A model generated the notes under the pieces. The model was not told the DNA's origin. It saw only the letters and a program-made list of their open reading frames with translations, and did no database searches. From Thermoplasmata archaeon (GTDB taxonomy: Archaea > Thermoplasmatota > Thermoplasmata > Lutacidiplasmatales > UBA184): a DNA stretch of 64,000 nucleotides. Below, in pieces: positions 13,280 through 64,000 of the stretch (position 1 is the stretch's first letter; every line of letters starts with the position of its first letter). Location: assembly GCA_021802125.1 (NCBI GenBank), contig JAKAAX010000006.1:7633-71632 (forward strand), in the 5' to 3' direction. A program made the translations under genes and the position numbers.

Positions 13280-13363
13280 TCCCTGAGGCCGACAACGGTC
13301 GCCTCCGAGGCCGGAAGTTCCGCTTCTGGGAACCCTCAAACCTCCCCCCGGGCTCTCCCGAAC

Positions 13364-42004: not shown

Positions 42005-42103
42005 CCATCCCGGTGCGGTCGGTCTGACGACCTTCGAGGGCGGGGAAGGGTCCTCGGCACCCCCCCCCAGCAAGGCTCTTCTATCCCTCGAGATGCGAAC
42101 CCC

Positions 42104-42155: not shown

Positions 42156-42206
42156 CCAAGCGGGCGAAGGACCCCACGAGGGGTCGGTCAGGAGGAGAAG
42201 CCGGCA

Positions 42207-42928: not shown

Positions 42929-42994
42929 CCACGCCCGGCGTGGCCCGCGCCCCGCGCGAGGGGGCCGAAGGCTTGACATGCGTTCATTTTTTAC

Positions 42995-48235: not shown

Positions 48236-48556
48236 GCGCCAGGAGGAGGTGGGCAGTTGACGGTACCTAGGCCTCGCAAGGGGTCGGGCGCTGAGGAAAG
48301 TCCCCACTCCGGGAACCAGGGGGGCGGGCGCAAGCCCGCCGGGCGAGAGCCCGAGCCACGGAGCAGACACGACACAGCCGGAGGGTACGAGGAATCGGAA
48401 CAGCCGAGGAGATTCCTTCCGGAAATGTTGAAACGGCCGTCTCCCCCGGAGCAAGCCCGAAGGCCCGGCATGAGCGCGGTTCCGCGACCGGCGAGATGGG
48501 CGCGCAGTCGAATGCTGTCGGAACAGAATGGGGCTTACGACCTCGACCTGGCCCGC
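48236..48556 (+). ncRNA. rnpB: RNase P RNA (archaeal type A-like)
   Basis: CR-I is GAGGAAAGUCC at 48293-48303. CR-V is ACAGAAUGGGGCUUAC at 48522-48537. A UGAAACGGC element lies near 48428. A GNRA-capped P3 candidate lies at 48270-48285. The P1 candidate pairs GCCAGG-AG-GAGGU (48238-48250) with ACCUC-GA-CCUGGC (48540-48552). Ends are accurate to about +/-30 nt. Confidence 0.85.
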
Positions 48557-48903: not shown

Positions 48904-49998
48904 ATGGCCCCTGACCCCGAGGAATCCCCTCGGGCGGCGCTCCACCGTCTCTCCGGAGGTTACCGGACGACGCAGGCCGTCTACGTCATGGCACGGTTGG
49001 GCGTGGCGGACCGTCTCGCATCGGGACCCAAGGACGCCCTCACGCTGGCCCGAGAGGTGGGGGCGGATCCCGACCGTCTCCACCGCGTCCTTCGGATGCT
49101 GGTCTCCCTGGGGGTGCTGACGATGGATGAGCTCGGACGTTTCGGTCTCTCCGACGTCGGGGAGCTCCTGAGGAGCGAGGTCCGGGGGTCGATGTTCGCT
49201 TTCGCGATCTTCCAGGGAGAAGAACCCTACCGGGCCTTCGGGGAGCTCCTCCATACCGTCCAGAAGGGAGAGGCCGCGTTCGATCACATCTACGGTACGG
49301 GCCACTTCGAGTACCTCGCCCAGCATCCCGAAGCGAGATCCACTTTCCACCGCGCCATGGCGAGCACGATCGCCTCCATGGGCAGCCCCCTCCGAGGCTA
49401 CGAGATGGGAGGGCACAAGGTCATGGTCGACGTGGGCGGGGGGAACGGGGAGCTCCTCTCCGAAACCCTCCGGTCGCACCCGTCGCTCCGGGGCCTCCTC
49501 TTCGACCTCCCGGAGGCCGTGAAGGGGGCCCAGGCCTGCTTCTCCGAGGCCGGTGTCGCGGACCGTTGCGAGGTCCGCACCGGGTCCGCCTTCGAATCCG
49601 TTCCGGCCGGGGGAGACCTCTACGTGATGTCGAGAGTGCTCCACGACTGGCCCGACGAGAGGGCCCGTCTCTTGCTCACCAACTGTCACCGCGCGATGAA
49701 GCCCGACGGCACGCTCCTGCTCATCGAGAGCGTCCTTCCCGAGCCTCGCGCGCCCGCGCCCCTTCTCTCGCGGGACCTCATGATGATGGTGATGAACGGG
49801 GGACGGGAGCGTACCGAACGGGAGTGGCGCTCGCTGTTGGAATCCGGCGGGTTCGCCCTCTCCCGCGTCCATGGCGCCGACGGAACTTTCCGTCTGATCG
49901 AGGCCAGCCCTCTCCCACCGCACGTGGACCACGCTTCAGGCGCCGGCGCCCCCGAGACCGACGCTTCGGCAGGGCGCCGTCGGTCCCACCCTGGCTGA
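48904..49998 (+). CDS. class I SAM-dependent O-methyltransferase (family 2, with N-terminal dimerisation/wHTH domain)
   Basis: Motif I is VMVDVGGGNGELL. LLFDLPEAV and YVMSRVLHDWPDE are present, with the catalytic His context. A TATA-like CTTGATAC lies about 25-30 nt upstream of the ATG. Confidence 0.85.
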   Translation: MAPDPEESPRAALHRLSGGYRTTQAVYVMARLGVADRLASGPKDALTLAREVGADPDRLHRVLRMLVSLGVLTMDELGRFGLSDVGELLRSEVRGSMFAFAIFQGEEPYRAFGELLHTVQKGEAAFDHIYGTGHFEYLAQHPEARSTFHRAMASTIASMGSPLRGYEMGGHKVMVDVGGGNGELLSETLRSHPSLRGLLFDLPEAVKGAQACFSEAGVADRCEVRTGSAFESVPAGGDLYVMSRVLHDWPDERARLLLTNCHRAMKPDGTLLLIESVLPEPRAPAPLLSRDLMMMVMNGGRERTEREWRSLLESGGFALSRVHGADGTFRLIEASPLPPHVDHASGAGAPETDASAGRRRSHPG

Positions 49999-50209: not shown

Positions 50210-51274
50210 GTGAACCAAGGTGAAGGAGATGGCCCTGGCGGCGCGGGGCCCAAGGGGGGAGTCTTGGACAAGCTCGACATCGCCCTTCTTCGCGAGCTCA
50301 CCCAGGCCGGGACGGTCTGGCCGGCCAATCCCCACCTGTCCTCCTCCCACCGCGCCATCGCCCGGAAGCTGGGGGTCTCTGCGGGCACGGTCCGGAACCG
50401 GGTCCTGCGCATGACGCGGAGCGGGTTCCTCCAGGGCATCCGGGTGTACGCGAATCCCGGGGTCCTCGGGCTGCTCTCAGGGTCCTACACCCTCGAGACC
50501 CCGCCGGGTTCGCGGCGAGGCGAGACGATCGCCCGGCTCTCGCAGGTCGAAGGCATCGTCTTCTTCGAGAACTTCCACGGGTCGTTGCTCGGGCTCGGGG
50601 TCGTCGCCGAGGACGAGGTCGGCATGCAGAGGCTGCTCGCCGAGATCGACAAGGCCGTCGGGTCCAAGCGCGGGACCTACACCCCGGTCCATCATCCCCC
50701 CTGCGCGGTCCGACCGACCGAGGCCGAGTGGGCGCTCCTCTCCCGCATCGTACCGGACGGGTTCCGCTCCTACCGTGAGCTTTCCAGTGCGCTCGGCGTC
50801 CCCATCCGCACCCTCAAGCGACGCGTCGCGAGGCTCGCCCGGGGAGGCGCCCTGCTCTCCTTTCCCCGTCTCGACTACCGCGCCCTCAACGGCGGCATCA
50901 CCGCGGAGCTCCTGATCTCCTACGTCCCGGGTCCGGCCAAGGATGCGTGCAGGGCCAAGGTCCTGAACGGTCTCGAACCGTGGATGACGTACGCCGGCGT
51001 CTGGGAGGAGTTCGAGGTCTATCGGCTGATCCTGCCCAACCCCTCGGTGGGCACGGAGCTGGCCGAGGCGCTGGCCGCCGACCCCGGGGTCGCCATGTCG
51101 AGGTTCGAGCTCGTCGACGGCGTCTACGATCGCTTCGAGTCTCTCCTCCCGCACATCGCCCGACGTTGCGGACGGAGATACGGCACGTCCCCCGGGCCCC
51201 TCCCACCGAGCTCGCCCTCGAGGTCGCGGCAACGGGCGGGCGCCCCGCGCGGACGTTCCCGAACACCGTCCTAG
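50210..51274 (+). CDS. tandem Lrp/AsnC-type winged-helix transcriptional regulator
   Basis: There are two HTH modules: LDIALLRELTQ...HRAIARKLGVSAGTVRNRVLRM and EWALLSRIV...YRELSSALGVPIRTLKRRVARL. Each is followed by an alpha/beta ligand-type domain. The likely true start is TTG 50264 (MDKLDIALL), which has an SD-like GGGGGGAG. Confidence 0.7.
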   Translation: MNQGEGDGPGGAGPKGGVLDKLDIALLRELTQAGTVWPANPHLSSSHRAIARKLGVSAGTVRNRVLRMTRSGFLQGIRVYANPGVLGLLSGSYTLETPPGSRRGETIARLSQVEGIVFFENFHGSLLGLGVVAEDEVGMQRLLAEIDKAVGSKRGTYTPVHHPPCAVRPTEAEWALLSRIVPDGFRSYRELSSALGVPIRTLKRRVARLARGGALLSFPRLDYRALNGGITAELLISYVPGPAKDACRAKVLNGLEPWMTYAGVWEEFEVYRLILPNPSVGTELAEALAADPGVAMSRFELVDGVYDRFESLLPHIARRCGRRYGTSPGPLPPSSPSRSRQRAGAPRGRSRTPS

Positions 51275-51465
51275 TCCGGAAAGGTCCGCGCCGCGTGGCC
51301 CCTCGACGAACCGCGGGCGCGGAGGGCGCCTTGGCACTTTTGTTCACTCCGTCTTAACACGCGTCTATGACCATCCCGCCCCGTACCCGTTCGGACAAAG
51401 GCTGAGCCCTTTCCCTGAATGGTCGCGGCCGGTCCATTCGAGGAGCGAGTCCGGCTGTCGGTTCG

Positions 51466-54400
51466 ATGAACGAGCGGGGAGGCGACCCGGGGCGGCGGAC
51501 GTCGCGGCTGCTGATGGCGTCCGTCGCGGTGGGCGCGGTGCTTCTGCTCCTGCTCCCCGCGCTGGCCCCGGCGGTCCAGGGTGCGCCGCCCTCGCCGGCT
51601 TCCCAAGGGAAGGGCGGAGCCGCCGCTTCTCCCCCCGGCGGGTCCTCGGGGAACTCGGCTGCAGCAGCGGCGACCAGCCCAGGCCCGACCCACGGTCTGA
51701 AGGCTCCGCAGCGTGGATGCGATGCGCCCGCCGGATGGCTCCCGATCTGCCCGCAGGGAGTGTCGGCCACATCTCTCCCGAGTATCGCGACCAACAGTCC
51801 GTGGCAACCGGTCACGACGACCCACACTCCTCCGTTCGGCACCGGAGGATGGGGGGCGATGGCCTACGACCCGGCGGACGGGTACGTGCTGCTCTGGCTG
51901 CTCAACCTGACCTCGGGTGGCACGGACACCTGGACGTACTCGGGTGGCCAATGGAAGATGCTCGCGCCCGCCACCTCGCCTCCTGTGAACACGAACTACC
52001 CGACCATGACGTTCGACCCGGACCCCGCGGCCTGCTGGGTGGGAACGAACGGTTGCTTGGTCCTCATGATGGGCCGCACGTACGGGACCGAGCTCGAGTG
52101 GCAGTATGCGGGCGGCAGTTGGGTCAACGCGACCGGGTCCCTGACGCATATCATCGTGTCGCCTCAGAGCGATCTCGGGCTCGCGTTCGACCAGAACCGG
52201 ACCGACTGCGGTCCCTACGCCGGCGCCAACGGCTGCCTGATGGCCGCCTCCGGATGGGACGTCAACGCGACCTGCGGCATCCCGTGCATCGCGCCGGATT
52301 ACAGCGTCCGCGTGTGGGCCTACAACGAGGCCACGAAGGCCTGGGGGTCTTTCCCCAGCGGAGTGAGCGGGGGTGCCGTCGAGGACTTCGGCGCGACCAC
52401 GCTGCTCTACGATCCGAACGTGGGCCACCTGCTGATGCGCGCGCCCATGGCCCAGCTGTGCCACTACGAGATCTGCGGCCTGGAGCCGTCCACCTTGGAG
52501 CTCACCAGCAGCGGTTGGTCCTTCCTGTACGGGACGTGCGGGTCCACGCCGTACTGCTCCGACGGTCTGCATGGGCTCGAGAACGCGGGGATCGTCTTCG
52601 ACGCCGCGAACGCCTTTGCGTTCGTGTTCGGAGGGATGAACTCGTCGTCCAGCTCCGCGTTCAACACCTCCTGGGCCTTCTACGGCGACCAGTTCTCTCC
52701 GCCCGGCTCGGCCTGGCTCAACCTCGACGAGCTCGCGAGCCTGGGGACCGGCCCGAACCCCTCGCCTCACTCGCGCTTCGACCCGTTCGTCGCCTACGAC
52801 CCGAACTCGGCCGACTGCGGTGGCGGGACGCCCGCCCACGGCTGCGTGGTGCTCTTCGGCGGGTCCCTCTATCAGGACACGTGGCGGTTCTGGCTGCCGG
52901 TCACCCCGGAGATCTACGCCAACCCCGACCCGGTCTCGCAGGGGCACACGCTCTGGATCAACGTGACGGTGGTCGGCGGTACGGGGCACTTCATCTGGTT
53001 CAACCGGACCTGGAAGGGGAGCACCTATCCCGTCGGTTGCGCGGTGAACTCCATCGCCGACGACCTCCACAGCCGGGTCTCCTGCGTGCCGACCTTCTCC
53101 ACGAGCTGCCCGGGCGCCCACGGGAACTTCTTCAACGTCTCGGTCACCGTTACCGATAGCAGCGGTGAGCAGGGAACGTCCGGTTGGGACCCTCTCGTCG
53201 TCAACCCCTCTCCCCTCGTGGTGCACTTCTACGACCGGTACCCCGTCTGGTGGCAAGGGGTGGACCTCGGTCTGCTGGACCCGGTCGGGATCAACGACCT
53301 CACGGACAACTTCGGGATCGCGACCTGGGCCCAGTCGTACGACCCCAACTCCCCCACCGCCTGGGTGGCCATCGATGCCGAGGCGGTGCTGGTCCAGGAA
53401 CAGACCCCCCTGCCGCTCACCTGGACCTCCTGGGACGGGGTCGGGGTGGACTACGCCACCCTGACGGCCTCCCAGCTCGCCAAGCTCCCGCTCGACGATT
53501 CGATCGAGTTCAGCGTCCAGCTCGGACCGGCAGGCAGCTCGACGGCCTGCGCCACGGTCTACTCCGACTTGAACCTGAACGCGACGTACGGCAAGCACAA
53601 GCTCTCGTACTTCCCCGTGGGCCTCAGCGGCCAGTACGGGGCGGTGGACCCCGGCAGCATGGTCCAACCGCTGCTCGAGGGCATCCCCGCGATGGTGGCC
53701 GCGACCACCGCGTCCATCACGACCCTCTCCTGGGGCGACCAGGGAGGCCACGGGCAGATCCTGGCGTTCAACGCCACATACTTCATCAACGCGACGCTCG
53801 TGATGAACATCGCCGCGCTCACCGGTGCGACGCTGCCGGACCCCGTGGCGGGCACCGCGTCCATCATCCCACGGGCCAACGTCGCCCTCTCCATCAGCTC
53901 CTTCGGAAAGGTCAGCATCACCGCGGGAGCCTCCGTCCAGTTCCCGTTAGGCAAGGTCGCCGGGATCTCTTTCACCATCACCGAGAGCTTCACGGCCCAG
54001 GCCAAGTTCCAGTTCGAGCAGTACTACGCGGGGCTCACGTACGTGGGGCACCTCGTGCTCACGAATTTCTCCATCGCGTTGGGAGTGGTGATCAAGGCCT
54101 CGGTCACCTTCCCGATCTATGGGATCAGTCTCGGCCCGCTGGGCACCATCGGGTTCACGATGACGATCGCCGTGGCTTTAGGCGCGACGATCGGGGTGTT
54201 CTTCAATCAGACGAACGCGCCGCTCACGTGTCCCGTCGGGTGTTTCCTCGGATGGTTGCCCGTCGTGCTCCAGAAGGTCCAGGCGCTGATCTCCCTCGCC
54301 ATCAGCGTCGCGTTGGGGCTCTCGATCGCGGTGGCCAGCATCAGCATGGGCGGCACCCTGGAGTTCGACATCTACCTCCAGAACGTCCAGCCCGTCCTCC

Positions 54401-56793
54401 GCGGATGGCAGCTCATCGGGACGGTGTTCGTCAGCGTGAGCGTCCTCTTCTGGACGTGGACGGACAACCTCTGGTCCGGGGTCATCGCCTCCAACGGCAC
54501 TCCCAACCCTGGCATCTTAGGTGGGCCGGGGTACAGGGCAGCGAACAACTCCTTCGTCGTCGGCCCTCGGTACTACAACGTCTCGGGCTACCAGGCGGTG
54601 GTCTGGGTCCCCGGGTCGGTGCAGGGGCCCCTCATCAACGACGTGTATCCTTCGGGGGCCTTCGACATGGCCGGGGGCTCCGGCGGTCCCGCGGTCCTCT
54701 ACGCGACGGACAACGTCTCGCAACCACGGAACCTGGGTCTCTCGCTGGGGATGCTCTCGCTGGACCCGGCGAACCGTACCGCGACCCCGGTGAGCTTCTC
54801 GCTCCCTCCGGGGGAGATCGAGTTCAACCCCCGTCTCGTGAGCGTGAACGGGGGAGGGCTCCTCGCGCTCTGGGACGCCCTGCCCGACGCGCAGACCACG
54901 GTCGCCGGGCCCTCCCAGGTGACCGGCGTCTCGCTCCAGAGCGCGCTCTGGGACCCCACGAGCCGGACCTGGGGCCCTCCGACCACGCTCTCCACCGGGG
55001 CCTTCCCGATCTCCTACACCGCAGGCTCCTGCGGAACCGACACCCGCGTGGTGCACCTCGATGCTCCGTCCCTCCTGGGTCACGGCGGGTCGCTCGTCGA
55101 GCAGGACCTCGTGAGCGGGGTCACGATCGCTTCGGTGAGCGACCCGCTGGCCTCCGACGTCGTGTCGTTCGATTGTCCCAGCGGGCTCGTGTCGGTGAGG
55201 AACATCGACGGGAACTACACGGTGGTCAACATGACGAGCGGAACCCCGTGGGCGGTCCCCACCGTGCCCGGGTACAACCTGTCGTTCGTGTCCCACGCGG
55301 GAGGGAGCCCCGGAGACCTCGCGGTCCTGTACCGGGATTCCTCGTCCACACAGCTGCAGATCGACGGCACGGGCGGACAGCTTCTCGCGAACGTGACCCT
55401 CCCGGAGAACGTTTCCTCGGTCCAGGTGGACCTCGACGGCGGGACCTGGGTGGTGGCCGCTCAGGCCCCGGACGGGGTCCAGGTGTACCTGGTCCAGGGC
55501 ACCTCTCTGGCGCTGGTCCGTGACCTTCCCTGGCAGAACCTGACCCAGACCCGTCTTTCGGTCTCGCCCGGAGGAACGGCCACCCTCGTCGGCGAGACGA
55601 AGAACGGGGGTCCGGGGCTCCCGTGGATGAACCTCAGTGCCGCCTACGTGCCCCTGACCGCGGTCGGGCCCATCTCCGCGCTCCCGGGTTCCGTGGACGC
55701 CGGGGCACCGGTCACGTTGAGCGCCACCGCGGAGTCGGTGAACGGCCCGCTGCAGTACCTCTGGACCGGGTTGCCTCCCGGGTGCGTGTCCCTGAACGCC
55801 CCGTCGATCACGTGCACGCCCACGACGCCCGGGACCTACGGGATCGCCCTGCGGGTCACGGATGGACGCGGGGTCACCGCGACAAGCTCGACACTGACCT
55901 TCGAGGTCGGAGCGCCTCCCGCGGTCGGTGCGGTGAACGTCTCCAGCGCCCGGGTCGAGGCGGGGAGCTTCGTGAACTTCACCGCCCCGGTAAGTAGCTT
56001 GGGAGCGACCTCGTTCGCCTACTCGTGGTTCGGCCTTCCTCCCGGCTGCACTTCCGTGAGCACGCCTTTGCTGGTCTGCGCGCCCTCCGCCCCTGGGAAC
56101 TACACGGTCGGGGTGACCGAGCTCGACCTGAGGGGCGGCTCGGTGAGCGAGACCCCGGTCTCGATCGAGGTGCTTCCCCGGCTCGCCGTGGCCTTCCTCA
56201 CCGCGAGCGGCGACCAGGTGGCGACGGGGACCTCGGTCCGTTTCTCCGCCTCGGGTGAGGCCGGGGTCGGGCCCTACGCCTACTCCTGGGGGGGACTACC
56301 GAGCGGGTGCGCCTCCGTCTCGGTCAGTTCGCTGTCCTGCTCCTTCCCCGCCGCCGGGACCTTCTGGGTCACCGTGGTGATCACCGACGCGGACGGGATC
56401 ACGGCCGCCCGGTCCGTCAAGATCGTCGTGGAGTCTCCCCCCGCCGCCGGCGTGAGTGCGTTCCTCCTGGAGGTTCTGCTGTTGGTCGGCGTCGCCGCCG
56501 TAGCGGCTGCGAACGTGGCGGTCTGGTGGTGGCTGCCCAAGCGCAAGGCCCGCGGAGCTGGACCCAAGGCCGAGCAAGACACGTCAGAGACCCCCGCGCC
56601 GACACCGGGGTCCGCTACGCCCGCGCAGGCGCCTGCGACCACCTCGGCTCCCATTCCCAATCCCGCTCCTGCTCCCACTCCTGCTCCCACTCCTGCTCCC
56701 GTTGCCTCTCCGTCCGAGGTGGATGCGGGCGGCCAAGCAGCCTCTCCGCCAGCCTCGGCCGCTTCTCCGCCGGAGGGGGACCGGGGTGCATGA
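51466..56793 (+). CDS. giant (1775 aa) secreted/membrane protein: signal peptide, Kelch-like repeats, internal hydrophobic module, three Cys-containing He_PIG/PKD-like domains, C-terminal TM anchor and Pro/Ala/Thr-rich tail
   Basis: The signal sequence is RRTSRLLMASVAVGAVLLLLLPALAPAVQG. Kelch-type segments include AMAYDPADGYVLLW and TWTYSGGQW. The repeats carry W-x-GLPPGC...C-x-P...G-x-Y...V-x-D. The TM helix is LLEVLLLVGVAAVAAANVAVWWWL, followed by KRKAR. Confidence 0.8.
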   Translation: MNERGGDPGRRTSRLLMASVAVGAVLLLLLPALAPAVQGAPPSPASQGKGGAAASPPGGSSGNSAAAAATSPGPTHGLKAPQRGCDAPAGWLPICPQGVSATSLPSIATNSPWQPVTTTHTPPFGTGGWGAMAYDPADGYVLLWLLNLTSGGTDTWTYSGGQWKMLAPATSPPVNTNYPTMTFDPDPAACWVGTNGCLVLMMGRTYGTELEWQYAGGSWVNATGSLTHIIVSPQSDLGLAFDQNRTDCGPYAGANGCLMAASGWDVNATCGIPCIAPDYSVRVWAYNEATKAWGSFPSGVSGGAVEDFGATTLLYDPNVGHLLMRAPMAQLCHYEICGLEPSTLELTSSGWSFLYGTCGSTPYCSDGLHGLENAGIVFDAANAFAFVFGGMNSSSSSAFNTSWAFYGDQFSPPGSAWLNLDELASLGTGPNPSPHSRFDPFVAYDPNSADCGGGTPAHGCVVLFGGSLYQDTWRFWLPVTPEIYANPDPVSQGHTLWINVTVVGGTGHFIWFNRTWKGSTYPVGCAVNSIADDLHSRVSCVPTFSTSCPGAHGNFFNVSVTVTDSSGEQGTSGWDPLVVNPSPLVVHFYDRYPVWWQGVDLGLLDPVGINDLTDNFGIATWAQSYDPNSPTAWVAIDAEAVLVQEQTPLPLTWTSWDGVGVDYATLTASQLAKLPLDDSIEFSVQLGPAGSSTACATVYSDLNLNATYGKHKLSYFPVGLSGQYGAVDPGSMVQPLLEGIPAMVAATTASITTLSWGDQGGHGQILAFNATYFINATLVMNIAALTGATLPDPVAGTASIIPRANVALSISSFGKVSITAGASVQFPLGKVAGISFTITESFTAQAKFQFEQYYAGLTYVGHLVLTNFSIALGVVIKASVTFPIYGISLGPLGTIGFTMTIAVALGATIGVFFNQTNAPLTCPVGCFLGWLPVVLQKVQALISLAISVALGLSIAVASISMGGTLEFDIYLQNVQPVLRGWQLIGTVFVSVSVLFWTWTDNLWSGVIASNGTPNPGILGGPGYRAANNSFVVGPRYYNVSGYQAVVWVPGSVQGPLINDVYPSGAFDMAGGSGGPAVLYATDNVSQPRNLGLSLGMLSLDPANRTATPVSFSLPPGEIEFNPRLVSVNGGGLLALWDALPDAQTTVAGPSQVTGVSLQSALWDPTSRTWGPPTTLSTGAFPISYTAGSCGTDTRVVHLDAPSLLGHGGSLVEQDLVSGVTIASVSDPLASDVVSFDCPSGLVSVRNIDGNYTVVNMTSGTPWAVPTVPGYNLSFVSHAGGSPGDLAVLYRDSSSTQLQIDGTGGQLLANVTLPENVSSVQVDLDGGTWVVAAQAPDGVQVYLVQGTSLALVRDLPWQNLTQTRLSVSPGGTATLVGETKNGGPGLPWMNLSAAYVPLTAVGPISALPGSVDAGAPVTLSATAESVNGPLQYLWTGLPPGCVSLNAPSITCTPTTPGTYGIALRVTDGRGVTATSSTLTFEVGAPPAVGAVNVSSARVEAGSFVNFTAPVSSLGATSFAYSWFGLPPGCTSVSTPLLVCAPSAPGNYTVGVTELDLRGGSVSETPVSIEVLPRLAVAFLTASGDQVATGTSVRFSASGEAGVGPYAYSWGGLPSGCASVSVSSLSCSFPAAGTFWVTVVITDADGITAARSVKIVVESPPAAGVSAFLLEVLLLVGVAAVAAANVAVWWWLPKRKARGAGPKAEQDTSETPAPTPGSATPAQAPATTSAPIPNPAPAPTPAPTPAPVASPSEVDAGGQAASPPASAASPPEGDRGA
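55660..56445 (+). repeat. three tandem repeats of about 90 codons encoding Cys-variant He_PIG/PKD-like domains
   Basis: The three units are LQYLWTGLPPGCVSLNAPSITCTPTTPGTYGIALRVTD, FAYSWFGLPPGCTSVSTPLLVCAPSAPGNYTVGVTELD and YAYSWGGLPSGCASVSVSSLSCSFPAAGTFWVTVVITD. Confidence 0.75.
56668..56700 (+). repeat. 12-nt tandem repeat CCTGCTCCCACT (about 2.75 copies) encoding the PAPT tail
   Basis: Seen directly: the copies lie at 56668-79, 56680-91 and 56692-700. Confidence 0.8.
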
Positions 56794-59700: not shown

Positions 59701-60578
59701 TCCTGGTCAACGTGACGGTCACGGACTCGAACTCGATCTCCGCGGTCTCCTCCTCGCTGACGTTGATCGTCCTGGGGATCCCGCCCACCCTATCGGTCAC
59801 GGCCCAGGCCTCGCCGACCAGCGGCACCGCGCCCCTGGGCGTGGTCTTCACCGCCGTCTCTCAGGGAGGCGCGCCGCCCGTCGTCTTCTCCTGGGACTTC
59901 GGCGACGGGAGCCGGGGTGTCGGACCGACGGCCGCCCACACCTACGGGGCCGGAGGTCAGTTCGTGGCCGAGGTCTGGGCCAACGACTCCCAAGGTGGGA
60001 GCGCTGTTACCAGCGTCACGGTCTCGGTGAGCGCCCCGCCCCTCCGCGCCTACCTGGTCGAGACCCCGCGCACGCTCACAACGGGGGAGAGCGTCGACTG
60101 GGTGGTCCAGGTCTCCGGCGGGACCGCACCATACTCCGTCGCCTGGAGCGGGTTGCCGTCGGGCTGCCCCACTACCGGCACGAACGTCTCGTGCGCGCCG
60201 GGGAAGGCCGGGACGTACGCCGTCTCGGTCACCGTGACCGATCACACTGGTGTCTCCGCCACCGCGTCCGCCTCCCTCGTGGTCACCGGCGCCTCCACGA
60301 ACATCTCGCCCGCATCTCCGGGTCTTCTTCCGTGGGAGCTGGCGCTTCTCGTGGGAGGGATCCTCGCGGGGGCCGCTCTCCTGGTGGTGGGCCTTCGGCG
60401 TAGGAGACCCCCCACCTCGAAGGTGCCCGCTTCCGACGCCGCTCCCGCTCCCTCGGTGTCGGAGAAGACGGTCGAGCCTGTCGCAGGATCCAGCACCAAA
60501 GCACCCGAGCCCTCGCTCCCGGTCGCTCCTGCCGCCGACCCGAGCCCGCCCCCGAGCCCGACCAGCTCCGCGGATTGA
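56790..60578 (+). CDS. giant (1262 aa) secreted, C-terminally anchored Kelch-propeller / He_PIG-PKD repeat protein
   Basis: ATG 56790 overlaps the upstream stop (ATGA). The signal sequence is RRARIGAAVLSLLLLVLLLLPGSLVSG. There are at least 10 Kelch-like units (ASMAYDPDLGRTVLFGG..DTWSYD; SAMAYDATDHLLILFGG..DTWGL; and others). Four Cys-variant He_PIG units and one canonical PKD (FSWDFGDGS) follow. The TM helix is LALLVGGILAGAALLVVGL, followed by RRRR and a Pro-rich tail. Confidence 0.8.
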   Translation: MIARSSCRRARIGAAVLSLLLLVLLLLPGSLVSGRGPSPYVGSPHGASPSYAPAPSASSSSPGKLSPRASEHGASAEVRTVPPGSRPAGWPASLSFPLTRSSLAQFRPKVASAPIGTWGLVGTPADRFGASMAYDPDLGRTVLFGGFDWNGHTYGDTWSYDPANETWAPVPSPTSPEPRGFSAMAYDATDHLLILFGGDTLQGSMDADTWGLTAAGTWENLTPSVVTPFNNPSPREWASLAPSFASGVVLYGGYGYVAGVGEILGDTWSFTLATGWTQLCLYGSCGPTTPGPLFGATMGFDTFGTDDVLFGGDFGPSYTNATWILNSTGWYNLTSLEVPSPGARAFATMALIGGLETVMGGLSTNGGEYSDMWMFTPPTPTTFWSPVSTLPYGGFWMSSAFDSASGHTVLWGEANFSFGMIPNVWGWNGGGWYAEYGPAGSSPPTPDLTEMAYDAADGCVVAFSPGVNGLFPTTWRYQHGAWTNITPTVPTLANSPLSRYGAAMAYDASDGEVILYGGINLPTGQLASDTWAFAGGTWMNITPASSPPPLFFPALAPAFPSGPLVLFGGDDLSYNPTAATWTFLHGVWTSLSPATSPPARYDAAATWDRSEHGALIYGGNGGTVLDDTWRFDLVNDTWVAVCQPSCTGVTVSYPTMTYDPRDNKTILVGGQTGGAFYLSSGAWAVQNTLPAPMPRWLATMTYDANPSDGYALLYGGTGGGQLFADTWTFTPELNLSAPTVNRTSVDATQQSVRVRGGVTGGGAGGDLVSWENLPPGCTGLTGTNFTCVPTVAGNYTIFDQANTTGGVPLASGSVVALTVDPALVLSPAVRSDRAKVDVGSNVTFWANASGGTGTYSDLWGGLRQAVCSGSAESITCHFPVPGTYTVSLTVTDSNGMTLHAAPVTVNVYPVPTVSLPVASPDPAQVGSSLSLSAAAAGGAPPLSEIWNGLPPGCASASTLQLSCTPTSPGSFLVNVTVTDSNSISAVSSSLTLIVLGIPPTLSVTAQASPTSGTAPLGVVFTAVSQGGAPPVVFSWDFGDGSRGVGPTAAHTYGAGGQFVAEVWANDSQGGSAVTSVTVSVSAPPLRAYLVETPRTLTTGESVDWVVQVSGGTAPYSVAWSGLPSGCPTTGTNVSCAPGKAGTYAVSVTVTDHTGVSATASASLVVTGASTNISPASPGLLPWELALLVGGILAGAALLVVGLRRRRPPTSKVPASDAAPAPSVSEKTVEPVAGSSTKAPEPSLPVAPAADPSPPPSPTSSAD
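58985..60300 (+). repeat. five tandem Ig-like domain-coding repeats (four Cys-variant He_PIG, one PKD)
   Basis: The units are SWENLPPGCTGLTGTNFTCVP, LWGGLRQAVCSGSAESITCHF, IWNGLPPGCASASTLQLSCTP, FSWDFGDGS and AWSGLPSGCPTTGTNVSCAP. Confidence 0.7.
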
Positions 60579-60656
60579 CTCGCGAACGCGCTCCGGGCCC
60601 CGCTCACCGGGTCACTTCCCACAGCTCCCTCTGCGAGCCCGTTCGCCCGCCGTGCA

Positions 60657-60664
60657 GTATTTAC
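60657..60664 (+). promoter_or_regulatory. TATA-like box (GTATTTAC) for the third giant gene
   Basis: It lies 23-30 nt upstream of GTG 60687. A T5 tract at 60670-60674 could also terminate the upstream gene. Confidence 0.45.
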
Positions 60665-60686
60665 GGGAGTTTTTGCTCGCCAAGAT

Positions 60687-63600
60687 GTGAAGGGGGGACC
60701 TACCCGACCCCGGCGCGCGACCGTTCCCGAACGAACGTCTCTCGGCTCCAGGCTCCGCAGGGGCCCCCTCGTAGCGGGGGTCTTCTTCGCGGCCCTGATG
60801 GCCCTTCCCGCGCTGTTCGTCGGGATCGGGGCGTACGGTCCGGCGCATGCGCTTCCGAACGCCAGCGCAGAGGTGAGTGCCGGACCGGTCCAGGCGCCCT
60901 CCCACGCGAACCCTCGCATGATGCTCCCTCCCACCTTCGATCCCGGGTCTAGTTCACCCCTTGTCCCCGCGCCCCAGGTGAGCCCCACCGTGGGGATCAA
61001 CTACCAGGCCACGTGGGACCCGTCAGCCCAGAACGAGCCGGGCATCGCCGTGAATCCGACGAACCCGCTCGACATCATCGTCTCGGGGAACGACTACGAC
61101 ACGGCGGCCACTGGCTCCTCCGGATCCTGGGCGAGCGAGTTCACGTCCCTGAACGGTGGGCAATCGTGGTACTATCGCCCCGCGGCGATGAACAGCACCT
61201 TTGCCGGCGGCCATCCCTGCTTCGGGGGCGACTCCAACGTCTTCTTCGCGCCGGACGGGACCGCCTACTTCGCGGGCCTCGGCTACCCCACCGCCCAGAC
61301 GGCGCGTTGCTCGGGCAGCACCTCCACGAACGGGGGCCTCTTCGTCGCCCATTCCACCGACGGGGGTCTCACGTGGACGTACGTCCGGGTCGAACAGGAC
61401 GTCGGTTCCACTTGGGTGGACAAGGAATGGATGGGGATCGACCCCACCACGGGCACCGTCTCGATCGACGTGATGAACTACAGCTCGACCGCCTACATCG
61501 ACTACTGGTACTCCACGAACCACGGGGCTTCCTGGGTCGGACCCCGGCACGTGAACCCCTCGACCGACCAGAACATGGTCGCAGCCGGGCTCGCGATCGA
61601 CTCCTCCGGCGGAGTGGACGTGGTATGGCAGGGTGGCGCGAGCGGGAACGACATCGAGTTCTCTCGGGCGACGGCCCCCGGGCAGGCCTTCTCCGCCGAA
61701 GCGAACCTGGGCACGATCACCTGCGCCCCCACGGGGAGCTCCGGGTTCCCCGCCATCGGCGGTGTCGCCCGCATGAACTGCTTCCCCCAGATCTTTGGCG
61801 ACACCTGGGCGGGGAGCCCGTACCGGGGGAACCTCTACATCGTGTACACCGAGAACGTGAGCTCCCTGCAGATCAAGCTCCTGCGGTCGACGAACCTCGG
61901 GACCTCCTGGAGCTCGGCCATCGCGGTCAACAACGACCCCAGCGACGGGGCGGACCACTGGTGGCCTCAGTTGGCGGTGGGGACCAACGGGACGGTCTTC
62001 GTGGAGTTCCTGGACCGTCGGTACGTTCCCGGGAACTTCTACGTCGATACGACCGTCGCGGTCTCCACCGACGGGGGCCTGTCGTTCCCTCTGAACGTCC
62101 GGGTCTCTTCCGTGAGCGGGAACCCCACGGTGTGGTCGGCGTTCATGGGGGACTACGAGAACACCTTCTGGAGCCCCGCGGGCGACTTCTCGGTCTGGAC
62201 GGACTTCCGGAACGGGCTCCCGGGGAACCTGAACGAGAACCTGTACGTGGGCCAGCTCTCCTGGCTGAACCTCTCCTCGAACGTGGCGGGGGTCCCCGCC
62301 ATGGTCGACGGGAGCTCCCTCTCGCTCCCCACGACCGAGTACTGGACCCGGGGGACCGTCCACAACATCTCCGTCCCCACGAGCTTGGTCAGTGGAGGGG
62401 TGACCTACACGTTCTCCCATTGGCAGGGCATGTTCTCCTCCACCTCGAGCTCGCTGACGAACGTCGCGATGAACGACAGCTCTCCGCAGCTGGCCATCTA
62501 CAACGTGGCCGGCGCTCTCCCGCTCTCCGTCACCGTCTCGACCGTCCCGTCCGCGACCGCGACCTCGGGCTCGGCCGTCGCCGTCATGGCGGCCGTCACC
62601 TCGGGCGGCTCGCCCGTCGCGGGGGCGACGGTCACCTTCTCGGACACCCTCTCCGACACGTTCGCTCCCAACTCCGTCACCACGGGGACCAACGGCAACG
62701 CCTGGACCAACTTCACCGCTCCCACGGTCCTCTCTGCGACCGCGGACACCGTGACCGCCGCGGCCACCGCCAGCGGGTACTCCCCCGGATCCGGGACCGG
62801 GGCCATCACCATCGACCCGACCCCCCTCGTGGTCGTGCTGACGACGACGCCCTCGGGCAACGTGGTCGGGGGAGTCGTGGTCTTCGCCGAGGCCCGGGTG
62901 TCCCTCTCCGGCGGAGCTCCGGTGGCGGGGGCGACCGTGGCCCTTTCGGATTCGGCGGGCAGCACGTTCTCCCCGGCCACCTCTGCGAGCGACTCGGCGG
63001 GGTACGTCTACTCGAACTTCACGACCCCTGCGGTCGCTTCCCCCACCACCGACACGATCGATGCGGCGGCGACCGCACCCGGGCATCCCGGAGGTAACGG
63101 CACCGCGACGATCGCCCTCCAACCGGTACCGAACCTCACCGTCGCCCTTGTGCCGGTGCCTTCGAGCGGGACGCCCGGTACGAAGGTCGTTCTCCGTGCC
63201 ACGGTCTCGGACACCTCCGGTCCCTACGCGGGAGCGAAGGTGACCTTCGCGGACCAGCGGGGCGACCCCTTCTCCCCCGCCTCGGGGACGAGCAGCAGCG
63301 GGGGCACTGTCTGGAGCAACCTCACGCTCCCCACGACGCCCTTCCCGCTCACCCTCGTCGTCTGGGCGAACGCGACAGCGACCCTCGCGCGGCCCGGGGG
63401 CACGAGCACCACCGTCACGGACGAGCCGGTGCTCACCGGGTCCATCGTCGTCCCCGCCAGTCCTGTCACGGCGGGACTTCCCGCCGCGCTGAGCATCTCG
63501 GTCGCCTCCGCGGGGACCGCGATCGGTGGAGCCTCGCTCGTCTACTCCGATGTCCTCGGAGGGGTCTTTGCTCCCAGCGTCGGAACGAGCGCTCTGGGGA

Positions 63601-64000
63601 CGGGCATGGCCTACACGAACGTCACGGTCGCGAGCGTGAGCGCTCCTTCCGCCGACACGATCACCATCGCGGTCTCGGACGGGGGGTACGTCTCGGCCAC
63701 CCTCACCGCGACCCTCGAGGTCGACCCGGCGCCGCCGCTGGCCCTCAACCTCTCCACGACCTCCTACCAGGCCACGGCGGGCTCCACCGTTCCGGTCCGC
63801 GTCACGCTCCAGAGCACGGGAGCTCCGGTCGCGGGGGCGTCCGAGTCGTTCAGGACCTCCGCGGGGTCGCTCGATATCGTGTCGGCGACCACTCCGACCA
63901 ACGGGACCGTGGAACTCCTCCTGGTCGCACCCTCCCCGACGGCCGCGACCTCGGTCACCGTGACGGCGAGCGCCTCCGAGCCAGGCTACACGGCGGGGAC
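60687..64000 (+). CDS. giant secreted protein, 5' part only (runs off the right edge): signal peptide, BNR/Asp-box sialidase-like beta-propeller, then an array of Big_1-like Ig domains
   Basis: Absent from the track because the frame is open at the edge. My translation from GTG 60687 gives VKGGPTRPRRATVPERTSLGSRLRRGPLVAGVFFAALMALPALFVGIGAYGPAHA.... Asp-box motifs are HSTDGGLTW, YSTNHGASW, RSTNLGTSW and VSTDGGLSF. The repeats have the form GSPVAGATVTFSD...TTGTNGNAWTNFTAP. I met no in-frame stop up to 64000. Confidence 0.75.
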   Translation, partial: MKGGPTRPRRATVPERTSLGSRLRRGPLVAGVFFAALMALPALFVGIGAYGPAHALPNASAEVSAGPVQAPSHANPRMMLPPTFDPGSSSPLVPAPQVSPTVGINYQATWDPSAQNEPGIAVNPTNPLDIIVSGNDYDTAATGSSGSWASEFTSLNGGQSWYYRPAAMNSTFAGGHPCFGGDSNVFFAPDGTAYFAGLGYPTAQTARCSGSTSTNGGLFVAHSTDGGLTWTYVRVEQDVGSTWVDKEWMGIDPTTGTVSIDVMNYSSTAYIDYWYSTNHGASWVGPRHVNPSTDQNMVAAGLAIDSSGGVDVVWQGGASGNDIEFSRATAPGQAFSAEANLGTITCAPTGSSGFPAIGGVARMNCFPQIFGDTWAGSPYRGNLYIVYTENVSSLQIKLLRSTNLGTSWSSAIAVNNDPSDGADHWWPQLAVGTNGTVFVEFLDRRYVPGNFYVDTTVAVSTDGGLSFPLNVRVSSVSGNPTVWSAFMGDYENTFWSPAGDFSVWTDFRNGLPGNLNENLYVGQLSWLNLSSNVAGVPAMVDGSSLSLPTTEYWTRGTVHNISVPTSLVSGGVTYTFSHWQGMFSSTSSSLTNVAMNDSSPQLAIYNVAGALPLSVTVSTVPSATATSGSAVAVMAAVTSGGSPVAGATVTFSDTLSDTFAPNSVTTGTNGNAWTNFTAPTVLSATADTVTAAATASGYSPGSGTGAITIDPTPLVVVLTTTPSGNVVGGVVVFAEARVSLSGGAPVAGATVALSDSAGSTFSPATSASDSAGYVYSNFTTPAVASPTTDTIDAAATAPGHPGGNGTATIALQPVPNLTVALVPVPSSGTPGTKVVLRATVSDTSGPYAGAKVTFADQRGDPFSPASGTSSSGGTVWSNLTLPTTPFPLTLVVWANATATLARPGGTSTTVTDEPVLTGSIVVPASPVTAGLPAALSISVASAGTAIGGASLVYSDVLGGVFAPSVGTSALGTGMAYTNVTVASVSAPSADTITIAVSDGGYVSATLTATLEVDPAPPLALNLSTTSYQATAGSTVPVRVTLQSTGAPVAGASESFRTSAGSLDIVSATTPTNGTVELLLVAPSPTAATSVTVTASASEPGYTAG
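62518..64000 (+). repeat. tandem repeats of about 95 codons encoding Big_1 (invasin/intimin-type) Ig-like domains, at least 5 units
   Basis: The recurring pattern is (S/G)G(S/A)PVAGA(T/S)V.F.D...F.P......(S/T).G......(N/T)(F/L/V)T.P. The units start near 62518, 62830, 63130, 63430 and 63740. Confidence 0.65.

What the first reader, a model, noticed from the sequence alone, without database searches (positions are those of the whole stretch)
50210..64000. Locus of at least 14 kb: tandem-Lrp regulator followed by three co-oriented giant surface proteins
About a fifth of the window encodes three huge secreted proteins in a row: 1775 aa, 1262 aa and more than 1100 aa (truncated by the window edge). 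A double-HTH Lrp/AsnC-like regulator lies just upstream. The first two genes are translationally coupled (ATGA at 56790-56793). Both are built as signal peptide, Kelch propellers, Ig-like repeats, one TM helix, a polybasic stop-transfer and a Pro-rich cytoplasmic tail. The third swaps the Kelch region for a BNR/sialidase-like propeller plus a Big_1-like array and has its own TATA box at leaderless spacing. All three n-regions contain RR (GRRTSRLL, CRRARIG, RLRRGPLV), and N-x-S/T sequons are very frequent (NLT, NAT, NVS, NGT, NFT and others). This looks like a dedicated cell-surface or adhesion/glycan-interaction system of an archaeon, with domain combinations I do not recognise as a described family.
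Basis: partly seen in the sequence, partly recalled or inferred. Interest (0 to 1): 0.7.

Follow-up and report, generated by a model that had tools for sequence, protein, structure and literature searches.

The report
Regulated giant surface-protein operon, Thermoplasmata
An uncultured Thermoplasmata archaeon carries a conserved cassette made of a double Lrp-type regulator, a fixed 15-bp promoter box and two translationally coupled giant membrane-anchored surface proteins, one of which holds a roughly 640-residue module with no match in Pfam, NCBIfam or PDB sequences; the third giant gene is just a neighbour.

Summary
The ORFs are real, and the window is archaeal (RNase P RNA). The lengths (1775 aa, 1262 aa, more than 1100 aa), the ATGA overlap, the double-HTH regulator, the C-terminal TM helix with basic stop-transfer and Pro-rich tail, and the sequon excess all hold.

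Corrections:
- Gene 1 is not simply Kelch plus Ig. Residues ~585-1396 match no Pfam or NCBIfam family and no PDB sequence.
- With a 46-sequence alignment, AF2 (pLDDT 81) folds residues 804-1011 as nine very long amphipathic β-strands and residues 1053-1396 as a 7-bladed propeller.
- An exhaustive HMMER search finds this module in only 93 protein clusters. All named members are Thermoplasmata.
- The RR motifs are not conserved among orthologues, so there is no case for Tat export.

Conserved unit:
- The unit is gene 1 followed by a Kelch-PKD gene (4-bp overlap in five lineages), not the trio.
- The regulator and an invariant box, TGGCMCTTTTGKTCA (51332-51346), accompany it in 7 of 7 regulator-bearing loci and in 0 of 7 loci without the regulator.
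- Two regulator homologues chosen blind both sat next to a module gene, a Kelch-PKD gene and the box.
- Gene 3 (BNR-like propeller plus Big_1 array) is adjacent only in near-identical genomes.

Most likely this is a regulated heteromeric surface complex (adhesin or envelope). I class it as a new variant of the known archaeal propeller-PKD surface proteins.

The parts
50264..51274 (+). Tandem Lrp/AsnC-like regulator (REG). It is 336 aa from the TTG at 50264; the ORF could also start at the GTG at 50210 (354 aa). It has two HTH units and no recognisable RAM domain.
   Evidence: Pfam HTH_24 43.5 bits and HTH_AsnC-type 39.8 bits. HTH1 versus HTH2 is 41% identical. Both halves hit Lrp/AsnC PDB chains. 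There are 43 full-length homologue clusters named Lrp/AsnC, nearly all named ones Thermoplasmata and one Nitrososphaerales. Homologues sit next to the module gene in L001, L007, L011, L013, L019, L023 and L024.
51332..51346 (+). Conserved 15-bp box TGGCACTTTTGTTCA. It is probably the BRE/TATA of the gene 1-gene 2 promoter and/or the REG operator.
   Evidence: Invariant block in otherwise diverged intergenic DNA. It is the only site in the window at up to 3 mismatches. There is one copy in each REG-bearing module locus and none in the loci without REG.
51364..51372 (+). Second conserved block TCTATGACC, exactly 17 nt after the box. It is a candidate transcription start (initiator) region, which would imply a 5' UTR of about 100 nt.
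   Evidence: The spacing and sequence yCTAWsmCC are kept in eight loci. The distance from the T-run to the block is about 27 nt, which is the archaeal TATA-to-TSS distance (established knowledge; inference here).
51466..56793 (+). Gene 1: a 1775-aa type I surface protein. Order of parts: signal peptide; P/A/S linker; Cys-rich Kelch-like region; PKD-like domain; region X; long-strand β domain; 7-bladed propeller; 3 PKD domains; TM helix; Pro-rich tail.
51808..52905 (+). Gene 1 aa ~115-480: Cys-rich, divergent Kelch-like region.
   Evidence: No Pfam hit. In a local HMM, positions 20-65 match Kelch blades of Kelch-PKD proteins at 1e-5 to 5e-11. Many invariant Cys residues.
53875..54498 (+). Gene 1 aa 804-1011: long-strand β domain. 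It has nine strands, eight of them 16-31 residues long. One face is I/L/V, the other S/T/G/N.
   Evidence: AF2 with 46 sequences gives pLDDT 70-89 here. Family-level face hydropathy is about +2 to +3 against about -1 in seven of the nine strands, weaker in two. No Pfam, PDB-sequence or Foldseek match was seen for it.
54622..55653 (+). Gene 1 aa 1053-1396: 7-bladed β-propeller (28 strands) of no named family. The conserved PRYYN.S.Y motif lies just before it.
   Evidence: AF2 pLDDT above 90. Foldseek finds generic WD40-type 7-blade propellers, TM(target) 0.55-0.62 and 10-13% identity. Consensus.
55663..56430 (+). Gene 1 aa 1400-1655: three PKD domains (stalk).
   Evidence: Pfam PKD 55 bits. 35% identical to the PKD region of a 1262-aa Kelch-PKD protein, P0023.
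56449..56790 (+). Gene 1 TM helix (aa ~1662-1689, ending in an invariant WWW), a basic stop-transfer (LPKRKAR) and an 85-aa Pro-rich tail.
56790..60578 (+). Gene 2: a 1262-aa Kelch-PKD surface protein. Its start overlaps the gene 1 stop (ATGA). Order of parts: signal peptide; Kelch region aa ~115-740; PKD/He_PIG array aa ~745-1170; TM aa 1178-1204; RRRR; Pro-rich tail.
   Evidence: Orthologues (46-69% identity) follow gene 1 orthologues in every lineage.
60657..60662 (+). TATTTA, a TATA-like element about 25 nt upstream of the gene 3 GTG. It fits an independent, near-leaderless promoter.
   Evidence: Position only; no transcript data.
60687..64000 (+). Gene 3, which runs off the window and ends at window-equivalent 64535 (1282 aa from this GTG). 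Order of parts: signal peptide; BNR/Asp-box propeller aa ~105-530 (five Asp-box-like motifs at 61146-62087); Big_1 array from aa ~612; TM; RKRR; Pro-rich tail. It is a neighbour, not part of the conserved cassette.

Best explanation
The core of the locus is a regulated two-gene surface-protein cassette found in named members almost only in Thermoplasmata.

Shown: a tandem Lrp/AsnC-like transcription factor is encoded beside a promoter that carries a nearly invariant 15-bp box. The box is followed at TATA-to-TSS distance by a conserved start region.

Inferred: that promoter drives a bicistronic mRNA for gene 1 and gene 2. The ATGA overlap couples their translation, so the two proteins are made together and probably assemble with each other.

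Inferred from signal peptides, sequon and Cys content, and the C-terminal TM helix with basic cluster: both proteins are Sec-exported, N-glycosylated type I membrane proteins. A PKD stalk above the C-terminal TM helix holds the propeller heads away from the membrane.

Shown at the level of prediction and family distribution: gene 1 also carries a module that matches no Pfam or NCBIfam family and no PDB sequence. The module is an elongated domain of very long amphipathic β-strands followed by a 7-bladed propeller.

Inferred function: a conditionally expressed adhesion or cell-envelope complex, whose propellers bind an external ligand or a neighbouring cell surface. The regulator switches it on or off in response to a small molecule, as Lrp-family proteins typically do.

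Gene 3 is a separately transcribed surface protein of the same anchoring style that happens to lie next door.
For: Gene 1 family and pairing:
- Gene 1 has only 5 full-length homologues in 5.8e9 proteins. It occurs in 8 species-level genomes, 7 labelled Thermoplasmata and one labelled 'bacterium'.
- A 4-bp overlap with a Kelch-PKD gene is present in the window and in L001, L002, L004 and L008. In L008 the module is only about 29% identical.
- In L007 the two genes are 459 nt apart, and in L023 they are adjacent without overlap.
- Gene 2 orthologues (46-69% identity) are present in all gene 1 orthologue loci.

Regulator link:
- REG is 47.5% identical in L019, where the module is 27% identical.
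- The box TGGCMCTTTTGKTCA occurs in 7 of 7 non-redundant REG-plus-module loci and in 0 of 7 module loci without REG.
- Prospective test: REG homologues P0222 and P0216 were chosen only for contig length. Both lie beside a module gene (E 2e-187 and 5e-209), a Kelch-PKD gene and the box.

Surface location:
- Sequon excess.
- Signal peptides and C-terminal TM helices recur across the family.

The module:
- 93 clusters among 1.84e9 representatives.
- No Pfam, NCBIfam or PDB-sequence match.
- AF2 pLDDT 81.

Precedent: archaeal surface proteins built from propeller plus PKD domains are linked to cell-cell interaction in the literature.
Against: - There is no expression, localisation or binding data of any kind.
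- The box overlaps what looks like the core promoter. Its conservation could reflect an unusual promoter inherited together with REG rather than a REG operator.
- The loci are phylogenetically related, so 7/7 against 0/7 overstates independence.
- Half of the gene 1 lineages lack REG nearby, and some module proteins (L009, L018, L020) have no Kelch-PKD partner. Neither link is obligatory.
- No RAM effector domain was detected in REG.
- The three-dimensional arrangement of the long-strand domain (sandwich, groove or barrel) could not be inspected, because no coordinates are available.
- No ligand is known for any of the propellers.
Confidence: 0.6

Rival explanations
1. Gene 1 and gene 2 are the two subunits of the S-layer, or main cell-envelope lattice, of this lineage. 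This would be analogous in logic to the co-transcribed SlaA/SlaB of Sulfolobales. The long-strand β domain would act as a rigid strut and the propellers as lattice contacts.
For: - Giant, sequon-rich, membrane-anchored proteins made in a coupled ratio.
- S-layer proteins of Thermoplasmatales are stated to be still unidentified (PMC10354927).
- Propeller-PKD architecture is known from Methanosarcina surface-layer proteins (Jing 2002, cited).
Against: - A dedicated regulator suggests conditional rather than constitutive expression.
- Both proteins carry their own TM anchor.
- The family is patchy: 8 species for the orthogroup and 93 clusters overall.
- The same contig holds further giant surface genes (gene 3 and a 2622-aa ORF), so nothing singles this pair out.
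- No abundance data exist.
Confidence: 0.2
2. The long-strand amphipathic β domain of gene 1 is membrane-active or lipid-binding: a pore, a fusion element or a hydrophobic groove. The cassette would then mediate contact-dependent exchange with other cells, for example episymbionts.
For: - Nine strands, most with one fully hydrophobic face and one small/polar face carrying 13-16% charged residues.
- The domain sits in a cell-anchored protein with propeller heads.
- Thermoplasmata are known hosts of ARMAN/Micrarchaeota (PMC5498576).
Against: - The hydrophobic face runs over 8-11 alternate residues per strand. That is longer than a usual transmembrane β-strand and fits a buried core of a sandwich.
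- Foldseek listed no pore-forming or fusion protein among the top 50 hits in either library, although propeller hits dominate both lists.
- There is no similarity to aerolysin, MACPF or class II fusogens by sequence.
Confidence: 0.1
3. The genes encode extracellular enzymes rather than binding proteins. Gene 3 would be a sialidase-like glycosidase, and the Kelch regions would be galactose-oxidase-like catalytic domains.
For: - Asp-box propellers are the sialidase fold, and homologues carry BNR_2.
- Pfam Kelch_3 and Kelch_4 are named after the galactose oxidase central domain.
Against: - BNR scores 18 bits, below its 27-bit cut-off.
- No catalytic residues were tested.
- Kelch and BNR propellers are far more often binding scaffolds.
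- There is no hit to a glycoside hydrolase or oxidase family in Pfam or NCBIfam.
Confidence: 0.07
4. There is no system at all. These are independent, fast-evolving surface-protein genes that happen to cluster, and the regulator controls something else.
For: - Gene 3 indeed behaves this way.
- A REG homologue in L021 lies beside a different giant protein that lacks the module.
Against: - The gene 1 to Kelch-PKD order, usually with a 4-bp overlap, is kept down to about 27% identity.
- REG, the box and the module gene co-occur in 7 of 7 loci.
- Two blind predictions were met.
Confidence: 0.03

Closest known systems
Archaeal surface(-layer) proteins built from β-propeller and PKD domains (Methanosarcina mazei SLPs, Jing et al. 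2002; Kelch/YVTN-PKD-CARDB proteins of Mia14 and 'E-plasma')
   Same: Large secreted archaeal proteins that combine β-propellers with PKD/Ig arrays, proposed to act in the envelope and in cell-cell interaction. Gene 2 fits this description fully.
   Different: - Gene 1 inserts a module of about 640-800 residues (long-strand β domain plus a propeller of no named family) that these proteins lack.
- Anchoring is by a C-terminal TM helix with a basic cluster and a Pro-rich cytoplasmic tail.
- The genes form a translationally coupled pair with a dedicated regulator.
SlaA/SlaB S-layer operon of Sulfolobales (from my own knowledge)
   Same: Two co-transcribed, heavily N-glycosylated, all-β envelope proteins, one of them anchored by a C-terminal TM helix.
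   Different: There is no sequence or fold relationship. Here both partners are membrane-anchored and a specific regulator is attached. Lattice formation is unknown.
Archaeal Lrp/AsnC (FFRP) regulators such as Ss-LrpB, LysM, Ptr2 and LrpA
   Same: AsnC-type winged HTH. Ss-LrpB binds a 15-bp palindrome with an A/T-rich centre, TTGCAAAATTTGCAA (PMC1802622). The box found here, extended by its flanks, reads TTGGCACTTTTGKTCAA with TTG...CAA ends in four loci; in the window itself it ends in CAC.
   Different: - This is a single chain of about 315-360 aa with two HTH units, instead of a 140-160 aa HTH-RAM monomer.
- The RAM domain is not detectable.
- The box is only a weak inverted repeat and coincides with the TATA position.
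- Binding was not tested.
BNR/Asp-box (sialidase-fold) propeller proteins with Ig-like arrays (gene 3)
   Same: Five Asp-box-like motifs; distant homologues carry BNR_2; there is an array of Big_1 domains.
   Different: The score is below the Pfam BNR cut-off. No catalytic signature was examined. The protein is an archaeal TM-anchored form.

Membership tests
Lrp/AsnC (FFRP) transcription regulators | N-terminal AsnC-type winged helix-turn-helix | tested here: met
   HTH_24 scores 43.5 bits (cut-off 21.9) and HTH_AsnC-type 39.8 bits (cut-off 27) at aa 19-74. A second HTH near aa 184-215 is 41% identical to the first. PDB Lrp/AsnC chains hit both halves at E ~2e-3.
Lrp/AsnC (FFRP) transcription regulators | C-terminal RAM (αβ-sandwich) effector/oligomerisation domain (PF01037) | tested here: inconclusive
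   There is no PF01037 hit at E<=0.01. Each half has about 100 residues after its HTH, the right size for a RAM domain, and PDB matches extend to chain residues ~95. The fold was not modelled.
Kelch-repeat β-propeller | Repeated Kelch blades recognised by Pfam above the cut-off | tested here: met
   Gene 2: PF24681 134.9 bits (cut-off 50), Kelch_3 84.7 bits, Kelch_4 81.9 bits.
   There is no Pfam hit at E<=5 over aa 100-600. Only one blade-sized stretch (aa ~130-175) matches Kelch blades in a home-made HMM search. Distant family members do carry Pfam Kelch.
PKD domain | PKD profile above the cut-off | tested here: met
   Gene 1 scores 55 bits and gene 2 scores 73.3 bits against a 23.5-bit cut-off.
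BNR/sialidase-fold propeller (gene 3) | Asp-box repeats S-x-D-x-G-x-T-W | tested here: inconclusive
   Five relaxed motifs were found by regex. Pfam BNR scores 18.2 bits, below the 27-bit cut-off. Homologues at 26-32% identity carry PF13088/PF02012.
BNR/sialidase-fold propeller (gene 3) | Sialidase catalytic residues (Arg triad, nucleophilic Tyr/Glu) | not tested
Big_1 (invasin/intimin-type Ig) array (gene 3) | Big_1 profile above the cut-off, repeated | tested here: met
   57.4 bits against a 34.9-bit cut-off, in 5 stretches.
Tat (twin-arginine) substrates | Conserved S/T-R-R-x-F-L-K motif in the n-region | tested here: not met
   RR is present in the window proteins but is followed by T-S, A-R and G-P. 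It is absent from gene 1 orthologues P0003, P0005 and P0106 and from gene 3 orthologues as called.
Archaeal S-layer protein | Forms the 2-D lattice; dominant envelope protein | not testable with these tools
   This needs microscopy or proteomics of the organism.
β-pore-forming toxins / class II fusogens | Fold or sequence similarity of the long-strand domain to aerolysin, MACPF/CDC, HAP2 or E-type domains | tested here: inconclusive
   There are no PDB sequence hits. The Foldseek top-50 lists hold only propellers, which mask the other domain. The isolated domain could not be searched.

The most novel reading that the evidence does not exclude
The roughly 640-residue module (long amphipathic β-strand domain plus 7-bladed propeller), together with its Kelch-PKD partner, is either the long-sought envelope or S-layer machinery of wall-bearing uncultured Thermoplasmata, or a contact-dependent membrane- or lipid-interacting device. 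It would be switched by a single-chain double-Lrp regulator acting on a dedicated promoter box. That would make it a new class of archaeal cell-surface system rather than one more adhesin.
Probability: 0.15. Interest if true: 0.75.

Novelty: new variant of a known kind. Interest (0 to 1): 0.45.

Why it matters
Cell envelopes and cell-cell contacts of uncultured Thermoplasmata are essentially uncharacterised, and their S-layer proteins are still unidentified (PMC10354927).

This cassette offers three things:
- A protein module that matches no Pfam or NCBIfam family and no PDB sequence, found in named members only in Thermoplasmata. It has a confident predicted fold and could be named and deposited as a family.
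- A rare, directly testable regulator-operator-target triplet in an uncultured archaeal lineage: a single-chain double Lrp, a 15-bp box and a two-gene operon.
- A practical correction. Public gene calls cut off the signal peptides of gene 1 and gene 3, and hydropathy-based predictors would wrongly call gene 1 polytopic.

Without expression or localisation data the biological role stays generic (adhesion or envelope), which limits the surprise.

Tried and rejected
- The first AF2 run on aa 580-1400 with only 5 sequences gave pLDDT 44.7 and was unusable. It was replaced by a 46-sequence alignment.
- Foldseek against PDB and BFVD returned only generic 7-bladed propellers. The third fold search was not spent on the poor model.
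- PDB sequence searches with profiles A2 and A3 found nothing for the module.
With A2 it returned only close orthologues.
- A metagenome scan with the regulator alignment gave only 2 loci. One of them (L021) lies beside a different giant protein, and a 2-mismatch box there is at chance level, with about 0.7 expected.
- tblastn of the module against plasmid and phage collections found no match, so there is no sign of mobility.
- Extra TM helices in gene 1 (hydropathy) were rejected in favour of amphipathic β-strands.
- The Tat hypothesis was rejected.
- The ARAGORN 'tRNA-Asp (atc)' at 39767-39859 lies inside a high-GC3 ORF and is probably spurious.
- The long antisense ORFs (for example 51271-53751 and 61023-63122 on the - strand) are treated as high-GC artefacts.


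Full report

The window is about 70% G+C. It carries an archaeal RNase P RNA at 48241-48549 (172.7 bits). Named relatives of all proteins studied are Thermoplasmata MAGs, apart from one regulator homologue named Nitrososphaerales.

The four ORFs exist as described:
- The regulator runs from 50210 or 50264 to 51274.
- Gene 1 is 51466-56793 (1775 aa).
- Gene 2 is 56790-60578 (1262 aa).
- Gene 3 runs from the GTG at 60687 off the end of the window.

Third-codon G+C of 0.88-0.90 supports these frames. The long antisense ORFs are the usual high-GC artefacts. The ATGA overlap is read directly at 56790-56793.

The same contig is public (L006, ENA k141_1426537). It shows that gene 3 ends 535 nt beyond the window. 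After it come a DcsG_N-like gene and a 2622-aa ORF on the other strand. The rest of the window is housekeeping (class I aminoacyl-tRNA synthetase, geranylgeranyl reductase, ABC transporters, H+-PPase), so the locus is chromosomal.

**2. Domain content**

*Gene 2* is an ordinary Kelch-PKD protein. PF24681 scores 134.9 bits and PKD 73 bits. It has a signal peptide, a TM helix at aa 1178-1204, an RRRR cluster and a Pro-rich tail.

*Gene 3* has these features:
- Five Asp-box-like motifs.
- A sub-threshold BNR score of 18 bits, but Big_1 at 57.4 bits in five stretches.
- Distant homologues that carry BNR_2.
- The same TM, basic cluster and Pro-rich C-terminus.

Pfam and NCBIfam see only the three C-terminal PKD domains. 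Nothing is found at E<=5 over aa 100-600 or 580-1400. With HMMs built from the five full-length homologues:
- aa ~130-175 matches Kelch blades of Kelch-PKD proteins (1e-5 to 5e-11).
- aa 478-585 matches their PKD domains (about 1e-7).
- aa 585-760 matches nothing outside close relatives.

*Sequons* are enriched. Gene 1 has 29 against 11.4±3.1 in shuffles, and gene 2 has 21 against 7.4±2.5 (0 of 2000 shuffles reach either). Gene 3 is marginal at 18 against 11.9. Three cytoplasmic or membrane proteins of the window show no excess.

*The RR pairs* in the n-regions are not conserved. They are absent from 3 of 5 full-length gene 1 orthologue N-termini, and they do not fit the Tat consensus.

**3. 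The module with no family match**

An exhaustive HMMER search was run with a profile of gene 1 aa 580-1400 against 1.84e9 representative proteins. It found 93 proteins, 70 of them below 1e-30. These share profile positions ~180-816, which correspond to gene 1 aa ~760-1396. They are 800-3300 aa long, and most have a signal peptide and a C-terminal hydrophobic anchor. Those with names are Thermoplasmata.

Evidence that the module matches no existing family:
- No Pfam family covers it in five diverse members.
- The newer precomputed Pfam annotations of the members also lack one.
- PDB sequence searches with two profiles find nothing for it.
- Plasmid and phage collections hold no relative.
- It occurs once per protein and once in the window.

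*Structure prediction.* AF2 on five sequences failed with pLDDT 44.7. With a 46-sequence alignment it gave pLDDT 81 and pTM 0.62. The model has two parts:
- aa 804-1011 forms nine hairpin-connected β-strands, eight of them 16-31 residues long (pLDDT 70-89).
- aa 1053-1396 forms 28 strands, that is seven four-stranded blades (pLDDT above 90).

Across the family, most long strands have one face of mean hydropathy +2 to +3 (I/L/V) over 8-11 alternate positions. The other face averages about -1 (S/T/G/N) and carries 13-16% charged residues. This explains why a hydropathy scan flags aa 858-995. These segments are amphipathic β-strands, not extra TM helices, so the single-anchor type I topology stands.

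The hydrophobic face is longer than a membrane-spanning β-strand needs. That favours a buried core, meaning an elongated sandwich or strut. I could not inspect coordinates, and Foldseek lists were saturated by generic 7-bladed propellers (TM about 0.55-0.62, 10-13% identity). The geometry of this domain is therefore unresolved.

**4. What is conserved around it**

Gene 1 has only five full-length homologues (67, 59, 41 and 38% identity, plus itself). Orthologues occur in eight species-level genomes.

*The pair.*
- Every gene 1 orthologue locus has a gene 2 orthologue (46-69% identity) downstream.
- In the two deeper lineages a shorter Kelch-PKD paralogue sits between them. That paralogue overlaps gene 1 by 4 bp.
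- A family member only about 29% identical in the module (P0114, L008) is also followed, with a 4-bp overlap, by a Kelch-PKD gene.
- Three other distant members (L009, L018, L020) have no such partner.

*Gene 3.* It is adjacent only in genomes 96-98% identical to the window (L011). It lies four genes away in L001 and is absent from the flanks elsewhere. It has its own TATA-like element (TATTTA, 60657-60662) about 25 nt before its GTG. It is a neighbour, not a member of the cassette.

**5. The regulator and its box**

REG has two AsnC-type HTH units. It belongs to a family of at least 43 clusters of 313-360-aa single-chain proteins, annotated Lrp/AsnC. Homologues lie upstream of gene 1 in L001, L007, L011 and L013. 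In the distant locus L019, REG lies divergently upstream at 47.5% identity while the module is only 27% identical.

Aligning the intergenic DNA revealed one invariant block, TGGC[A/C]CTTTTG[T/G]TCA, at window 51332-51346.
- It is the only site in the 64-kb window at up to 3 mismatches, with 0.12 expected.
- It occurs exactly once in each of the seven fetched loci that have REG next to a module gene, and in none of the other fifteen.
- The only other near-matches, each with 2 mismatches, are at chance level.

*A prospective test.* I picked two further REG homologues purely for contig length: P0222 (52% identity) and P0216 (46%). Both lie beside a 1449- or 1463-aa protein that carries the module (E 2e-187 and 5e-209), followed by a 680-aa Kelch-PKD gene. 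Both have the box in the right intergenic position, with 2 and 1 mismatches.

Counting non-redundant loci, the box is present in 7 of 7 loci with REG and in 0 of 7 without. Loci without REG show ordinary TTTAT-type elements instead.

Exactly 17 nt after the box lies a second conserved block, yCTAWsmCC (window 51364-51372). This puts it about 27 nt from the T-run, which is the archaeal TATA-to-start distance. The box therefore coincides with the core promoter of the gene 1-gene 2 operon.

With its flanks the box reads TTGGCACTTTTGKTCAA in four loci (L007, L013, L019, L024); the window reads ...TTCAC. In style it recalls the 15-bp Ss-LrpB box TTGCAAAATTTGCAA (PMC1802622), but the inverted repeat is weak. 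Whether REG binds it, and whether it activates or represses, is inference.

**6. Most likely mechanism**

Shown:
- A conserved cassette of REG, the promoter box, the module gene and the Kelch-PKD gene.
- Translational overlap between the two structural genes.
- Export and anchor signals on both proteins.
- Sequon excess.
- The predicted fold of the module.

Inferred:
- One regulated transcript.
- Production of the two proteins in a fixed ratio, and a heteromeric complex on the cell surface.
- PKD stalks that lift the propeller heads, with the long-strand domain acting as a spacer.
- A function in adhesion, cell-cell contact or envelope architecture, consistent with what is proposed for propeller-PKD proteins of other archaea.

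Gene 1 looks like a Kelch-PKD-TM protein of the gene 2 type into which region X and the module were inserted. Its C-terminal PKD region is 35% identical to that of a 1262-aa Kelch-PKD protein (P0023).

**7. Rivals**

- A two-component S-layer is possible. S-layer proteins of this class are unidentified. However, a dedicated regulator, the patchy distribution and several other giant surface genes on the same contig argue against it.
- A membrane- or lipid-active role for the amphipathic β domain cannot be excluded without coordinates.
- Enzymatic roles have no support beyond fold names.
- 'No system' is refuted for REG, gene 1 and gene 2, and accepted for gene 3.

**8. Novelty**

The kind is known: archaeal surface proteins made of propellers and PKD domains. 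What I found no description of is new in three respects:
- The module matches no Pfam or NCBIfam family and no PDB sequence.
- It pairs conservatively with a Kelch-PKD partner.
- It has a single-chain double-Lrp regulator with a dedicated promoter box.

I rate it a new variant of a known kind, with interest 0.45. The regulator-box-operon triplet is the most directly testable part.

Noticed in passing
window 48241-48549 (+): Archaeal RNase P RNA (RF00373, 172.7 bits, full length). It lies between a HisA/F-like gene and an O-methyltransferase gene, and it fixes the domain of life of the contig.
   Followed up: partly
window 42097-42159 (+), then 42208-42929: A fluoride riboswitch (53.3 bits) lies directly upstream of a CrcB gene and a DUF190/P-II-like gene. 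This is a classic fluoride-export unit, here in an archaeon.
   Followed up: no
window 39767-39859 (-): ARAGORN reports a 93-nt 'tRNA-Asp' with anticodon atc. It lies inside an ORF with GC3 0.91 (38921-39889, - strand) and has no Rfam tRNA hit, so it is probably a false positive.
   Followed up: partly
window 51466 and 60687; public proteins P0001 and the L006 18940 call: Public gene calls start gene 1 at Met132 (1644 aa) and gene 3 at Met38. Both calls cut off the signal peptide. Orthologue N-termini support the longer start for gene 1; for gene 3 only the complete signal peptide and the TATA spacing support it.
   Followed up: yes
L006 22793-24935 (window-equivalent 64651-66793, beyond the window end): Just past gene 3 lie a DcsG_N-like (ATP-grasp N-terminal) gene of 299 aa and a further 2622-aa giant ORF, both on the minus strand. 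A DcsG_N homologue (50% identity) is also near the gene 3 homologue in L001.
   Followed up: partly
window 48904-49998 (+); L001 7590-8609: An O-methyltransferase (Dimerisation + Methyltransf_2) lies directly upstream of the regulator. It is kept there (65% identity) in L001/L012 but not in L013.
   Followed up: partly
L008 5259-7217 (-) and L019 4319-6016 (-): Two distant module loci both have a TPR + adenylate/guanylate-cyclase gene a few kb upstream. This may be shared ancestry or a second regulatory link.
   Followed up: no
L019 12593-14432: The Kelch-PKD partner in this assembly is frame-broken. tblastn shows Kelch repeats at 12593-13546, while the called 293-aa ORF is in another frame and is followed by a 310-aa PKD-TM ORF. 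This is an assembly error or a pseudogene.
   Followed up: partly
L021 4017-10581: A regulator homologue (46% identity) sits between a ~640-aa ORF and a convergent giant ORF of at least 1005 aa that ends in a TM helix, a basic cluster and a Pro-rich tail but lacks the module. This regulator family may therefore control other giant surface genes too. A 2-mismatch box at 4083-4097 is at chance level.
   Followed up: partly
window 51271-53751 (-), 57807-59561 (-), 61023-63122 (-): Long antisense ORFs (826, 584 and 699 aa) lie opposite the giant genes. They did not pass the codon-position G+C filter used for gene picking, and the homology evidence lies on the + strand; they are the typical high-GC artefacts.
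   Followed up: yes
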